Below, piece after piece: positions 33,001 to 36,000 of a DNA stretch of 64,000 nucleotides (positions within the stretch are counted from its first letter, which is position 1; every line of letters begins with the position of its first letter). The position numbers were made by a program. The stretch comes from a virus (Duplodnaviria; Heunggongvirae; Uroviricota; Caudoviricetes): the IMG/VR virus record IMGVR_UViG_2721755660_000001, one strand, 5' to 3'.

Positions 33001-36000
33001 TATCTCAACTTTCTCCGGCGAGTGGAAGGTCTACGACGCCGACACTGTCGTGTTTGAAGTCGCTGATTCTATCGCGGCCACTGGCGTTGAAGTTACCCCT
33101 GCAACTGCATCTCTGGTCGTTGGCTCAACCCAACAACTCAGCGGCGCGGTTCAACCAACCGATGCGACTAACAAGGCGATCACCTGGACTACTTCGGCGC
33201 CATCCATCGCCACTGTCAGTTCAACCGGCCTGGTGACAGCAGTTGCCGAGGGCACCGCGACTATTACGGCTACCACTGCTGACGGTAATTTCGCCGACAC
33301 CTGTGCAGTTACCGTTACTGCCGCGCCGTAATCACTACAAAGGGCGGCGTGCTGCCCTTGATACTGGTTATGGAGAACGATATGACACCTTTGAAAGAAA
33401 TTGGCGAGTGCCTGATTGGTACTGGAGACAGTGAATACTTCTTCCGCCCATCATTCCGTAACATGACTCGGATCGGCGAACCAGAACATATCGTCCGCAC
33501 CTTCTATGCGCTGTTCAATGAGGATGTGGCAAAGATGCTTGAAGCGGCGCGCGAAATTCACAGTGCGATACCAGAGCATCAGCGCAGATTTTACGCCCAC
33601 TATTTCGGTGACGTTTCGCTGCCACGCTGGGCACTTGATGCAGCAGGCTCTGCCGCGTTTGTGCGTGATGCATTACTCTCGGCTATTAACGTCATTCAGT
33701 CCTGCTGTGACGAGGACGTTTCTGAACTGACAGGATGGCATGAGCCATCACGCACTGGACGGCGAACGTTTGTATGGCGCCGTGGCGCGCTGCCGCCGGA
33801 GAACCTTATTCTGATAGCTCAGTCGCTGATCATGCATGGCGTTATCGGACGGGCGAAGGTTCGTAAGTTGCAAAAGCACGAAAGCAAGGAAACGACACCG
33901 GAGTTCCATGCAACTGAATACATCATGGCGGCGCGAAACCATTTTGGGATCAGCAGGGAAGAGGCTGAAAACCTTACCATGACCGAATTCGCCATGATGC
34001 TTAACGCCAAATACCCTGACCAGAAAGGCTTCACCAGGGAAGAGTACGACGCGGTTATGGACGATGATGAACGGCGTTGGCAGGAAATGATGAAACGCGA
34101 AAATTAAAAAAAAGCTATATAGCCATTTTTAGTAGGGGGGATTTGGAGTAGTTCTATGATCGTTTTCATCTCTATCTGGTAGCATCCTTTCGAACTAATA
34201 GGAGATGTGAAAATGAAAAAAGTCTTTATCCTTGGATTGGGTTTATTATCTTTCTATGTCAGTGCCTCTGAATTTTCTGAGCAGGATTTAATCGAGTTAG
34301 GAAAAAAAGAAATCCGGACTGAAATCTCATTGCCAACATCTTTTTCACAGGAAAAATTTATTCCTGATACTCGTGACAATCCATCTTCTCGAAGTGGAAA
34401 TGTTTGCCTTAAAGTCTCTGGAAGAAAGAATGACGGAACTGCAATGGATCTAGCTGTCTACGGAGTGCACATAGCCACAAAAGGTGAACAAGCTACTTTT
34501 GGTGAAATTTTTAAATTTATTGGCGAATCTGAAATGCAAAGTTCAGAAGCCAAAGAATCTTGCAAATTTTAAATTCGCCATGATGTTATAATACCTCAAC
34601 ATCATTGGATTTCATTAATGAACCCGCTACGGCGGGTTTTTTTATGCCCGGAGAAAAGTGATGTCTGAAAAAGCAGGCGAGATTTATTACGACATCGAGG
34701 CCGATGTTTCTGGCTTGCTCAAGGCGCAGGGAAAGGCTAATAAGTCGCTCGACTCCATCGGCAACTCGGCGACCAATGCAGCCAAAAAGATGGGTGAGTT
34801 GCAGACGAATATCAACCGCGTCGCAGGGGCTATTGCCGCATCACTTGTTGTTGACTGGGGTAAGGCGTTTCTCGTTGCTGCTGACAACATGAGCCAGCTC
34901 AACGCGCGTATAGAGAGGCTTACTGGTAGCGCAGCGACAGCCTCTCAGACAATGCAGAGCCTGATGCGTATCAGTTCGGCAACTGGCGGTTCTCTTCAGG
35001 ACACTGCGAAGCTGTGGGAAACTCTCAGCACGGCGTTGCGCGATACCGGCGCGACGAACGGCCAGATCATTCAGCTCACCGAAACACTTCAGAAAATCGG
35101 GCGTATTGGTGGATCCTCATCCGAGGAAATGGCGAATGCGCTCCGTCAGTTCGGCCAGTCCATATCCTCGGGCACTATCCGTGCTGAGGAGTTCAACTCC
35201 ATCCTTGAGCAAATGCCAGAACTGGCGCGGCAGATCGCCGCCGGGATGGGTGTAAGCATTGGAGAACTTCGCCAGCTGATGCTGGACGGGAAACTGACGG
35301 CAGAAGAAGCCCTCAACGCTATTCAGAAGCAAACCGGATCAGTCAACGCTGAGTTCGAGAAACTCCCGCGTACGCTTTCACAGGCTAATACCGCGCTGAC
35401 AAACTCATTCCTGTCGATGATCGATTCAGTTAACCAGGCAACAGGTGCGAGTAACGGCCTGGTGGCAGTTATCGATTCAATGACAGCTGCGCTCGACAGA
35501 CTGGTTGGTAAGGCAATCTCAGCGGATGCGCAGATTTCAGATCTGAACAGCACGGCAGAAATGTTTACCCGCCGGGCCCGGACCTGGTCATGGCTGGGGC
35601 TTGATGGTTGGGAGGCACAAAACAAAGCGCTGGCTGGGCTGAGCAATAAAGCCGCGATTCTGGTTGGCGACCTGGCGGCTGTAACCAAAGAATCACAGGC
35701 CGCCGCCAACACCAAGCCGATCGAGATAAAAACCACGGCAACGACCACCGGGAGCAAGTCGAAAGGTGGAGCGTCAGCCGCTAAGAAAGAAGCGGATCAA
35801 TACGCTAAAGCGCAGGAAACCGTTAACCAAAAACTGGATGAGTTGCGGCAGAAGGCCGAGCTGTCAGCGGGGAGTGTTGGCGAGTTATCGCGAGCGCAGG
35901 CCGTGCTTAATGCACAGCAGTCTCTCGGTAATACCGCCACGCAGGAGCAAATCATGCTGGCCGGTCAACTGGCAGGTAAAGCCTGGGACAATGCCAACGC

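What the first reader, a model, noticed from the sequence alone, without database searches (positions are those of the whole stretch)
34213..34644. Secreted small protein gene inserted between tail assembly chaperone and tape-measure genes
A 119-aa ORF with a clear Sec signal peptide, strong RBS and its own terminator sits where the G-T frameshift extension normally lies in lambdoid tail modules. The region is visibly AT-rich. It is a candidate periplasmic lysogenic-conversion or exclusion factor.
Basis: partly seen in the sequence, partly recalled or inferred. Interest (0 to 1): 0.5.

Follow-up and report, generated by a model that had tools for sequence, protein, structure and literature searches.

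The report
Secreted-protein moron beside tape-measure gene
A small, AT-rich, horizontally acquired gene for an exported 119-residue protein sits in a swappable slot just upstream of the tail tape-measure gene of an E. coli prophage, the same place as the first "moron" ever described (HK97 gene 15). It is a real but fairly ordinary example of a known kind, and its function is untested.

Summary
Window 34213-34572 (+) is a 119-aa ORF with an AGGAG ribosome-binding site, an N-terminus shaped like a Sec/signal-peptidase-I signal peptide (MKK / VFILGLGLLSFYV / VSA|SE), a strong hairpin plus T-run terminator (34620-34643), and 36.7% GC against 52-57% in the flanks. It is a real gene: dN/dS is 0.12-0.25 at dS about 0.4.

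Comparison of 85 related tail modules shows that the junction between the DUF6246 gene and the tape-measure gene is a polymorphic slot:
- empty, 33-53 bp: 11 loci
- a 124-aa lipoprotein: 63 loci
- a 97-aa membrane-anchored protein: 3 loci
- this gene: 8 loci

The terminator hairpin is present in every state, so it belongs to the slot and not only to this gene. The gene is not a G-T frameshift product. Stops lie in all three frames upstream, and DUF6246 has no slippery site.

The protein is an ORFan, with no relatives among 1.84 billion representative proteins. It may be a remote, delipidated relative of the alternative lipoprotein cargo (P about 0.002-0.01).

The architecture and GC content match HK97 gene 15, a proven superinfection-exclusion moron. 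Exclusion at the cell envelope is therefore the best functional guess, but it is untested. Verdict: a new member of a known kind.

The parts
33382..34107 (+). Left flank: DUF6246 gene (241 aa by the PGAP start; a 252-aa reading from GTG 33349 is also open). It lies in the position of a tail assembly chaperone, between the major tail protein gene (32576-33331) and the slot.
   Evidence: Pfam DUF6246 E=9e-73 and phrog_791. No in-frame slippery heptamer and no -1 frame ORF. The last 5-6 codons differ between slot states, so the left boundary of the cassette lies at about 34099.
34108..34212 (+). Upstream untranslated region of the cassette, with stops in all three frames.
   Evidence: Stops at 34105, 34120 and 34180 (the DUF6246/ORF frame), at 34149 (-1 frame) and many in the +1 frame. 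GC 0.34-0.43.
34177..34185 (+). Candidate extended -10 promoter element, TGGTAGCAT. No convincing -35 element.
   Evidence: TGnTAGCAT is kept in all four diverged variants (TGATAGCAT in L008), while the sequence 20-60 nt upstream is scrambled in L008. The consensus scan did not pick it up. It is a candidate only.
34200..34204 (+). Ribosome-binding site AGGAG, 8 nt before the ATG.
   Evidence: Read from the sequence. Invariant in all variants.
34213..34572 (+). CDS of the 119-aa precursor. The predicted mature product is 101 aa, 11.2 kDa, pI 5.0, with Cys65 and Cys117.
   Evidence: dN/dS 0.12-0.25. Both Cys are invariant. No Pfam, NCBIfam, PADLOC or PDB hit. Only three full-length homologue clusters exist.
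34213..34266 (+). Signal peptide coding part (residues 1-18, predicted cleavage VSA|SE).
   Evidence: n/h/c-region analysis. Maximum 11-residue hydropathy is 2.54 at residues 4-14. The -3/-1 rule is met after residue 18.
34571..34612 (+). First 3' UTR hairpin (core ATGATGTT...AACATCAT).
   Evidence: RNA fold of 34570-34648: -24.3 kcal/mol, z = -3.95. A sub-threshold Rfam istR match covers 34521-34643 (25.8 bits against a gathering score of 45).
34620..34643 (+). Intrinsic terminator (GAACCCGC-TACG-GCGGGTTT followed by more T, seven T in all). It is a feature of the slot that all cargo states share.
   Evidence: Present in empty, A, B and C states, with compensatory stem variants CCCGC/GCGGG and CCCACC/GGTGGG.
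34661..36988 (+). Right flank: tape measure protein gene (ATG 34661 per PGAP; GTG 34658 is also open), with its ribosome-binding site GGAG at 34650-34653.
   Evidence: Pfam TMP_3 E=4e-57 and phrog_1538. Annotation.

Best explanation
The feature is a moron. That is a small, horizontally acquired, self-contained expression cassette lodged in a polymorphic slot between the DUF6246 gene (in the chaperone position) and the tape-measure gene. The host element is a lambdoid-regulated siphovirus prophage of E. coli/Enterobacter, integrated at the tRNA-Arg(CCU) gene.

**Shown here.**
- It is an insertion relative to related modules.
- It has foreign base composition.
- It is under purifying selection.
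- It has a ribosome-binding site, a start codon, a Sec-type signal peptide and a downstream intrinsic terminator.
- The same slot elsewhere is empty or carries two other unrelated small envelope proteins: a lipoprotein and a membrane-anchored protein.

**Inferred.**
- The gene is transcribed in the lysogen from a weak extended -10 promoter (34177-34185). During lytic growth, Q-antiterminated late transcription reads through it.
- The precursor is exported by Sec, cleaved after Ala18, and oxidised to a Cys65-Cys117 disulfide. This yields a soluble, acidic, 11-kDa periplasmic protein.
- In the periplasm it most likely interferes with genome delivery by superinfecting siphophages with related tails. 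It could do so by binding an ejected tail component (tape measure or tail tip) or a periplasmic host factor that the tail needs. This would be superinfection exclusion at the envelope, as shown for HK97 gp15 in the same slot.

**Confidence by step.**
- It is a genuine moron encoding an exported protein: about 0.9.
- Its role is phage exclusion: about 0.4.
For: **Insertion.** The DUF6246-to-tape-measure gap is 12 bp in CobraSix, 33-53 bp in 11 loci and 36 bp in E. coli CUPF06. It is about 550 bp here.

**Slot states.** In 85 loci not selected for the gene: lipoprotein cassette 63, empty 11, this gene 8, membrane-anchored cassette 3.

**Composition.** 36.7% GC against 52-57% in the flanks.

**Real gene.** dN/dS 0.12-0.25. 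ORF by chance: 43/20000.

**Mobility.** In L008/L009 the cargo is 85% identical at the nucleotide level, while the flanking DUF6246 and tape-measure sequences are only 59-68% identical.

**Signal peptide.**

**Terminator.**

**Late read-through.** The prophage has a Q antiterminator and lambdoid nin/lysis genes upstream.

**Precedent.** HK97 gene 15 lies between the G/G-T chaperone genes and the tape-measure gene, followed by a terminator 12 nt before the tape-measure start. It is 36.7% GC against 52-55% in its flanks. It is expressed from the prophage and blocks genome injection in a way that depends on the phage tail (PMC3594210).

**Common theme.** All three alternative cargos are small, envelope-targeted, two-Cys proteins. 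This points to a shared envelope-level role.
Against: - There is no experimental or expression data.
- The protein has no detectable homologue of known function.
- It has no similarity to HK97 gp15.
- The AlphaFold model is unreliable (pLDDT 51).
- The promoter is only a candidate.
- Position next to the tape-measure gene is an analogy, not a mechanism. Morons in tail operons also encode non-exclusion functions, such as lambda Lom and Bor (PMC3594210).
- A frameshifted allele exists in two metagenome assemblies, so the gene is dispensable in some lineages.
Confidence: 0.45

Rival explanations
1. It is a lysogenic-conversion factor that benefits the host and has nothing to do with phages. In this reading the periplasmic protein alters envelope physiology, stress tolerance or gut colonisation, for example in cattle-associated E. 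coli, much as lambda Bor and Lom do.
For: All three complete E. coli genomes that carry it come from cattle or beef. The product is exported. Morons are known to have diverse host-directed roles (PMC3594210). There is no similarity to any known exclusion protein.
Against: The gene and the alternative cargos are tied to one precise slot in a tail operon. They are found only in this phage lineage and are never chromosomal. The distribution is very sparse, 3 of 5426 E. coli genomes. Nothing links the protein to a host pathway.
Confidence: 0.25
2. It is a delipidated, very diverged member of the phage lipoprotein family that occupies the same slot in most relatives (phrog_2320). That family carries the motif DPxSAQFRNV...VCGEINGKNxxGAYxGF plus a C-terminal Cys and has a cystatin/NTF2-like fold. 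On this reading the protein acts as a periplasmic binder or inhibitor, for example of the papain-like NlpC/P60 peptidase carried by these tails (37918-38334). That would be one specific way to achieve exclusion.
For: - PHROG profile match: phrog_2320 scores E=0.005 for this protein and E=2e-32 for the lipoprotein.
- hhalign gives Prob 86%, E=5e-6 with signal peptides.
- For the mature parts alone, hhalign gives P=0.009, and 12 of 5000 shuffles reach the same HMM score. The register is the same in both.
- The two Cys line up: C65 in both proteins, and a Cys 2-3 residues from the C-terminus in both.
- Length and slot are the same.
- Two variants keep a Cys at position 15 of the signal peptide, near the position of the lipobox Cys.
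- The family model (pLDDT 84.5) resembles cystatins, latexin and VirB8-type periplasmic domains.
- Family members recur as morons next to the NlpC/P60 tail gene K.
Against: - The mature-only statistics are weak (hhalign probability 4%).
- Most invariant family residues are not kept: D38, G66, N72, Y77, G79 and F83.
- The exhaustive profile search found no intermediate sequences.
- The idea of peptidase inhibition is pure inference.
Confidence: 0.15
3. It is a passenger gene with no current function: a recently acquired, possibly H-NS-silenced piece of AT-rich DNA that is slowly decaying.
For: Very narrow distribution. A frameshifted allele (A7 to A6 at about 34312) occurs in two assemblies. 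No clear -35/-10 promoter.
Against: dN/dS is 0.12-0.25 over dS of about 0.4 across three lineages. The signal-peptide properties and both Cys are preserved. The cargo is better conserved than its flanks in L008/L009.
Confidence: 0.1
4. It is part of tail assembly: the frameshift (T-like) extension of the chaperone, or a structural or assembly protein of the tail.
For: Only its position between the chaperone-position gene and the tape-measure gene, and the fact that it shares the reading frame of DUF6246.
Against: - There are three in-frame stops, plus stops in both other frames, between the two ORFs.
- It has its own ribosome-binding site and ATG.
- DUF6246 has no slippery heptamer.
- The gene is absent or replaced in closely related modules with near-identical DUF6246 and tape-measure genes.
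- A Sec signal peptide would remove the protein from the cytoplasm, where tails assemble.
Confidence: 0.02

Closest known systems
HK97 gene 15 moron (gp15, a YebO-like inner-membrane superinfection-exclusion protein; Juhala et al. 2000; Cumby et al. 2012; review PMC3594210)
   Same: - Same slot, between the tail assembly chaperone gene(s) and the tape-measure gene.
- Same layout: short upstream untranslated stretch, small ORF, CCCGC...GCGGG hairpin plus T-run, then the tape-measure start 12-17 nt later.
- Same GC content, 36.7%, against flanks of 52-57%.
- The product is directed to the envelope.
- The element is absent from close relatives.
   Different: - No sequence similarity and no YebO Pfam hit.
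- gp15 is 62 aa and stays anchored in the inner membrane. This protein is 119 aa with a predicted cleavable signal peptide, so it should be soluble in the periplasm.
- Exclusion has been demonstrated for gp15 and not for this protein.
- The upstream gene here is DUF6246, without a G/G-T frameshift.
phrog_2320 family of small phage lipoproteins (the 'cassette A' cargo of the same slot; function unknown)
   Same: - Occupies the identical slot in 63 of 85 related modules.
- Similar length (124 against 119 aa).
- Exported.
- The two Cys are at equivalent positions.
- Weak profile similarity in the same register.
- The family behaves as a moron in several tail operons.
   Different: - The family has a lipobox (LAGC), whereas this protein has a signal-peptidase-I site.
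- The family signature (DPxSAQFRNV, CGEINGKN, GAYxGF) is mostly absent here.
- GC is 0.49 against 0.37.
- The family is broad, with over 150 clusters reaching into Alphaproteobacteria and Gordonia phages. This gene is an ORFan.
Ltp of Streptococcus thermophilus phage TP-J34, T5 Llp and phi80/N15 Cor (prophage- or phage-encoded envelope lipoproteins that exclude superinfecting phages)
   Same: All are small exported proteins made by a resident phage that act outside the cytoplasm. Ltp is reported to target the tape measure protein of the incoming phage (Bebeacua et al. 2013, cited in PMC3952083). Cor inactivates the FhuA receptor (PMC3594210).
   Different: Those proteins are lipoproteins encoded elsewhere in their genomes: in the lysogeny module, or next to receptor-binding genes (from my own knowledge). 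This protein has no sequence relationship to them, and no Cor PHROG hit. It has no lipobox.

Membership tests
Moron (Juhala/Hendrix definition, as summarised in PMC3594210) | Inserted between two genes that are adjacent in related phages | tested here: met
   DUF6246 and the tape-measure gene are 12-53 bp apart in CobraSix, in 11 metagenomic or genomic loci and in E. coli CUPF06. They are about 550 bp apart here.
Moron (Juhala/Hendrix definition, as summarised in PMC3594210) | Base composition differs from the surrounding genes | tested here: met
   36.7% GC and GC3 of 0.26, against 52-57% GC and GC3 of 0.56-0.62.
Moron (Juhala/Hendrix definition, as summarised in PMC3594210) | Own transcription terminator | tested here: met
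   Hairpin 34620-34639 plus a run of seven T. Caveat: the same hairpin is kept in empty-slot and other-cargo relatives.
Moron (Juhala/Hendrix definition, as summarised in PMC3594210) | Own promoter | tested here: inconclusive
   The consensus scan finds none directly upstream. An extended -10 motif, TGnTAGCAT at 34177-34185, is conserved in all variants.
Moron (Juhala/Hendrix definition, as summarised in PMC3594210) | Expressed from the repressed prophage | not testable with these tools
   Needs RNA-seq, 5' RACE or proteomics of a lysogen.
Sec-exported, signal-peptidase-I-cleaved periplasmic protein | Positively charged n-region, hydrophobic h-region of 10-15 residues, small residues at -3/-1, and no lipobox | tested here: met
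   MKK / VFILGLGLLSFYV / V-S-A | S-E. No Cys in residues 1-25 and no further hydrophobic segment. The features are kept in homologues. SignalP was not available.
HK97 gp15 / YebO family | Sequence similarity to gp15 or to the YebO Pfam family | tested here: not met
   BLASTP finds no alignment at E<=100. No Pfam hit at E<=0.1.
phrog_2320 lipoprotein family (cassette A) | Significant profile match outside the signal peptide | tested here: inconclusive
   phrog_2320 E=0.005 for the full length. hhalign E=5e-6 with signal peptides. For mature parts only, P=0.009 and probability 4%. The HMM score of 5.2 bits is reached by 12 of 5000 shuffles.
phrog_2320 lipoprotein family (cassette A) | Invariant motif residues (D38 P39 S41 F44 C65 G66 N72 G75 A76 Y77 G79 F83) and the C-terminal Cys | tested here: not met
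   Only P, S, F, C65, G75 and the C-terminal Cys align. D38, G66, N72, A76, Y77, G79 and F83 are replaced.
phrog_2320 lipoprotein family (cassette A) | Lipobox L-[AS]-[GA]-C | tested here: not met
   There is no Cys in this copy's signal peptide. The variants have L-S-F-C, which is not a lipobox.
G/G-T tail assembly chaperone frameshift product | Open reading frame continuous with the chaperone gene through a slippery site | tested here: not met
   Stops in all three frames between 34105 and 34212. DUF6246 has no in-frame XXXYYYZ heptamer and no -1 frame stretch longer than 40 codons.
Known anti-phage defence systems (PADLOC) | Match to a PADLOC model | tested here: not met
   No hit at E<=1. 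This carries little weight, because HK97 gp15, a proven exclusion protein, also has no PADLOC hit.

The most novel reading that the evidence does not exclude
The DUF6246/tape-measure junction of this phage lineage may be an 'exclusion-type' locus. In this reading it is a recombination-swappable slot, held between the conserved 3' end of DUF6246 and a conserved terminator hairpin. Its alternative cargos are a soluble periplasmic protein (this gene), a lipoprotein and a membrane-anchored protein. Each would block genome injection by a different set of sibling phages at a different envelope layer. Slot state would then define mutual-exclusion groups among otherwise near-identical prophages. As a sub-case, this ORFan would be a delipidated derivative of the cystatin/NTF2-like lipoprotein cargo.
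Probability: 0.25. Interest if true: 0.6.

Novelty: new member of a known kind. Interest (0 to 1): 0.35.

Why it matters
Morons in tail operons are a recognised source of prophage-encoded host protection, yet very few have an assigned function. This one mirrors the archetype, HK97 gene 15, in position and architecture.

It also comes with a natural experiment. Near-identical prophages carry this gene, one of two other envelope-protein cargos, or nothing in the same slot. That gives a compact, directly testable system for two questions. Do such cassettes set exclusion specificity between sibling phages? At which envelope layer do they act?

By itself it is an unremarkable hypothetical gene present in 3 of 5426 complete E. 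coli genomes.

Tried and rejected
**Searches for a function of the 119-aa protein.**
- Pfam, NCBIfam, PADLOC, PDB sequence profiles and tblastn against 50,697 phage records gave nothing.
- The word-indexed search of 5.8 billion proteins and the exhaustive HMM search of 1.84 billion representatives found only three full-length clusters and one frameshifted copy.

**Structure.**
- AlphaFold2 on the 4-sequence alignment gave pLDDT 51, too poor for a fold search.
- The afdb50 library was unavailable.

**Specific ideas checked and dropped.**
- *MliC/PliC-type lysozyme inhibitor.* I recalled a 'TKG' motif, but there is no Pfam support, so I dropped the idea.
- *Frameshift extension of DUF6246.* Rejected.
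- *Phase variation at the A7 tracts.* Frameshifted copies are rare: 2 of about 19 copies of this gene and 1 of 63 lipoprotein copies. I do not claim it.
- *Rfam.* Only sub-threshold istR and rsmX matches over the 3' UTR and terminator.
- *DUF6246 against PDB.* Only spurious PAS-domain hits.
- *Lonsdalea relative (L017).* It has a 1.8-kb AT-rich stretch after DUF6246 with two signal-peptide ORFs. No tape-measure gene lies within reach and there is no similarity to this protein. It is not used as evidence.
- *Cumby et al. 2012.* The paper is not held in the library, so I used the authors' commentary, PMC3594210.
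Full report
**1. What is in the sequence**

Window 34213-34572 (+) is an ATG-initiated ORF of 119 codons ending in TAA. AGGAG lies at 34200-34204, 8 nt upstream of the ATG. The alternative GTG at 34207 is too close to it to be the start. NCBI's PGAP annotation pipeline calls exactly this CDS (WP_033817211.1, 'hypothetical protein') in three complete E. coli genomes.

The N-terminus reads MKK-VFILGLGLLSFYV-SA|SE. It has two lysines, a 13-residue hydrophobic core (peak 11-residue hydropathy 2.54), V and A at -3/-1, no Cys and hence no lipobox, and no other hydrophobic segment. The predicted mature protein is 101 aa, 11.2 kDa, pI 5.0, with two Cys (C65, C117). Both are invariant among the homologues.

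The 3' UTR folds into two hairpins (-24.3 kcal/mol, z = -3.95). The second, at 34620-34639, has an 8-bp stem and runs into seven T. The scan scores it as an intrinsic terminator.

The insert 34108-34657 is 36.7% GC and the ORF has GC3 of 0.26. The neighbouring genes are 52-57% GC with GC3 of 0.56-0.62. An ORF this long arises in 43 of 20000 shuffles of the insert.

**2. It is a real gene**

Only three full-length homologue clusters exist, at 98, 89 and 82% identity, plus a frameshifted 79-aa form. This holds in the 5.8-billion-protein index and in an exhaustive profile search of 1.84 billion representatives. Across these lineages dS is 0.4-0.47 and dN/dS is 0.12-0.25, both for the signal peptide and for the mature part. 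The signal peptide changes sequence but keeps its character. This is purifying selection on a protein.

**3. Genomic setting**

The window is an E. coli prophage. It is 99.99% identical to a prophage of strain O22:H8 154 over window 14100-44373 and 99.94% identical over 44367-47932. The prophage is integrated next to tRNA-Arg(CCU) at 47858-47932.

It has lambdoid early and late regulation (ren, ninE, ninG, Q, lysis genes). Its head-tail module is not lambda-like: DUF1073 portal, DUF2213, a major capsid protein, an Ig-domain major tail protein, DUF6246, a TMP_3 tape measure protein, NlpC/P60 and TipJ.

The gene upstream of the finding (33382-34107) is DUF6246/phrog_791. It stands where tail assembly chaperones stand, but it has no known structure or function. 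It has no in-frame slippery heptamer and no -1 frame stretch longer than 40 codons.

Stops occur in all three frames between its TAA (34105) and the ATG at 34213. The 119-aa protein therefore cannot be a frameshift extension.

**4. It is an insertion into a polymorphic slot**

In Enterobacter phage CobraSix the DUF6246 homologue ends 12 bp before the tape-measure start. I fetched 86 loci encoding close DUF6246 relatives. In 85 of them both flanking genes could be located. The gap falls into discrete classes:

| Slot state | Gap | Loci | Cargo |
|---|---|---|---|
| Empty | 33 or 51-53 bp | 11 | none |
| Cassette A | ~500 bp | 63 | 124-aa lipoprotein, VKKILLALVIPLVLAGC..., GC 0.49 |
| Cassette B | 403-404 bp | 3 | 97-aa protein with an N-terminal membrane anchor and two Cys, GC 0.40 |
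| This gene | 533-550 bp | 8 | the 119-aa exported protein |

Among 5426 complete E. coli genomes, 9 carry the module: 3 with this gene, 5 with cassette A and 1 empty.

The left break in homology lies within the last 5-6 codons of DUF6246. The right break lies at the terminator hairpin.

That hairpin plus T-run is present in every state, including the empty ones. It occurs in two stem versions that differ by compensatory changes: CCCGC...GCGGG and CCCACC...GGTGGG. CobraSix lacks it. The terminator is therefore a property of the slot. It is either a remnant of a moron or a landing pad, and it did not arrive with this gene alone.

In two metagenomic contigs (L008, L009) the cargo is 85% identical in nucleotides to the window. 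The flanking DUF6246 and tape-measure sequences there are only 59-68% identical. The cassette has therefore moved between diverged modules, always into the same slot.

**5. Comparison with the archetype**

The review by the HK97 gp15 authors makes four points (PMC3594210):
- The first element called a moron is HK97 gene 15.
- It lies between the tail assembly chaperone and tape-measure genes.
- Morons differ in GC content and carry their own promoter and terminator.
- gp15 is expressed from the prophage, inserts into the inner membrane, and blocks genome injection in a manner that depends on the tail of the incoming phage.

The HK97 record shows this order:
- chaperone gene end at 8145
- gp15 at 8203-8391
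- putative terminator at 8398-8422
- tape-measure start at 8435

The HK97 moron is 36.7% GC against 52-55% in its flanks, and its terminator is also a CCCGC...GCGGG hairpin with a T-run. The finding has the same slot, the same layout and the same composition.

It is not homologous to gp15, and neither is cassette B. PADLOC has no model even for gp15, so the lack of a PADLOC hit says nothing.

**6. Possible relationship to the alternative cargo**

Cassette A belongs to phrog_2320 (E=2e-32). The protein in this window hits the same PHROG weakly (E=0.005). The cassette A family is large, with more than 150 clusters. It has the signature DPxSAQFRNV ... VCGEINGKNxxGAYxGF ... C.

Evidence for a relationship:
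- Profile-profile comparison gives probability 86% and E=5e-6 when signal peptides are included.
- For the mature parts only, it gives P=0.009 and probability 4%.
- An HMM of the mature family scores the mature protein at 5.2 bits, and 12 of 5000 shuffles reach that score.
- All three methods give the same register.
- C65 and the C-terminal Cys coincide.

Most invariant family residues are not retained, however. I rate homology as possible, perhaps even odds, but unproven.

Family members recur as morons elsewhere in tail operons, for example between genes K and I in an HK97-like phage and in a lambda-like metagenomic module. They also occur in Salmonella, Klebsiella, Acinetobacter and Gordonia phages.

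**7. How it most likely works**

*Shown:* an inserted, foreign-composition, selectively maintained gene with a ribosome-binding site, a signal peptide and a downstream terminator. It sits in a slot whose alternative cargos are also small two-Cys envelope proteins.

*Inferred:*
- Transcription in the lysogen starts from an extended -10 element, TGGTAGCAT (34177-34185). This element is conserved in all variants, although the sequence just upstream is scrambled in the most distant one. It is only a candidate, because the consensus scan finds no -35/-10 pair there.
- The transcript ends at the hairpin, which keeps the tape-measure gene silent in the lysogen.
- In lytic growth the Q-modified late transcription complex reads through. 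This follows from established lambdoid biology and the Q gene annotated.
- The product is exported by Sec, cleaved after A18 and oxidised by DsbA.
- In the periplasm it most plausibly blocks a step of genome delivery by related siphophages. The target could be the ejected tape measure or tail tip, a periplasmic host factor, or the tail NlpC/P60 peptidase.
- This rests on analogy with HK97 gp15, and with Ltp of TP-J34, whose target is the tape measure protein (Bebeacua et al. 2013, cited in PMC3952083).

I put about 0.9 on 'a moron encoding an exported protein' and about 0.4 on 'superinfection exclusion'. Rivals are a host-directed conversion factor (0.25), a non-functional passenger (0.1, which the dN/dS argues against) and a tail-assembly or frameshift product (0.02, refuted by the sequence).

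**8. Verdict**

Corrections:
- The G-T frameshift premise does not apply to this module.
- The terminator is shared by all states of the slot.
- The 'chaperone' label rests on position only.

The feature is a new member of a known kind, a tail-operon moron in the HK97 gene-15 position, encoding an ORFan protein. The added value is the discovery that the slot is polymorphic, with three alternative envelope cargos and an empty state among near-identical prophages. That makes the function directly testable. Interest is moderate to low (0.35).

Noticed in passing
window 34620-34643; loci L012-L097, the ~45 nt before the tape-measure start: A GC-rich hairpin plus T-run sits just upstream of the tape-measure ribosome-binding site in every related module, including those with an empty slot. 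It comes in two stem versions, CCCGC/GCGGG and CCCACC/GGTGGG, that differ by compensatory changes. The more distant phage CobraSix has no hairpin there. So a terminator-like element inside the late tail operon is conserved independently of cargo.
   Followed up: partly
L012, L016, L024-L096 (cassette A); L015, L088, L089 (cassette B): Two other cargos occupy the same slot. One is a 124-aa lipoprotein of phrog_2320 with a cystatin/NTF2-like predicted fold. The other is a 97-aa protein with an N-terminal membrane anchor, two Cys and no detectable homologues in Pfam, PHROGs, NCBIfam or PADLOC.
   Followed up: partly
L010 6702-7060 and L011 106-464 (equivalent to window ~34306-34312); L016 ~4846: Frameshifted alleles occur at homopolymer A tracts. 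This gene has A7 shortened to A6 in two independent metagenome assemblies, giving a 79-aa truncated product. The lipoprotein gene has A7 lengthened to A8 in Enterobacter cloacae M-7. The events are rare, so they may be pseudogenes or assembly errors. There is no evidence for phase variation.
   Followed up: partly
window 34521-34643: The 3' end of the ORF plus the 3' UTR gives a sub-threshold Rfam match to the Hfq-binding sRNA istR (25.8 bits, gathering score 45, E=0.007). It folds into two stable hairpins (z = -3.95). A 3'-UTR-derived small RNA is conceivable, but the match is probably driven by the terminator.
   Followed up: partly
window 33382-34107: The gene in the tail-assembly-chaperone position (DUF6246, 241 aa) is a single ORF. 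It has no slippery heptamer and no overlapping -1 frame, unlike the conserved G/G-T arrangement of most siphophage tail modules.
   Followed up: partly
window 47933-56000 and beyond: Directly past the tRNA-Arg(CCU) gene (47858-47932) comes a second, different prophage-like element, with an integrase, YfdQ, an antirepressor and an MT-A70 methyltransferase. It matches O111:H8 and other STEC genomes at 99%. Strain 154 instead has the core genes yfdC and mlaA at this position. These look like tandem integrations at one tRNA site.
   Followed up: partly
window 44367-44373: In E. coli O22:H8 strain 154 an IS3-family element (about 1.3 kb) interrupts a HipA-domain gene at this point of the prophage. 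The window lacks the IS, so the gene is intact here. Two acyltransferase genes flank it on the minus strand, downstream of the tail fibre gene (about window 43000-47300). These are further candidate conversion genes.
   Followed up: no
L017 4680-6500 (Lonsdalea britannica): A DUF6246 homologue 51% identical to the window's is followed by about 1.8 kb of AT-rich DNA (GC 0.41 against 0.52). That stretch has several small ORFs, two of them (112 and 114 aa) with signal-peptide-like N-termini and several Cys. No tape-measure gene lies within the 4 kb that was fetched.
   Followed up: partly
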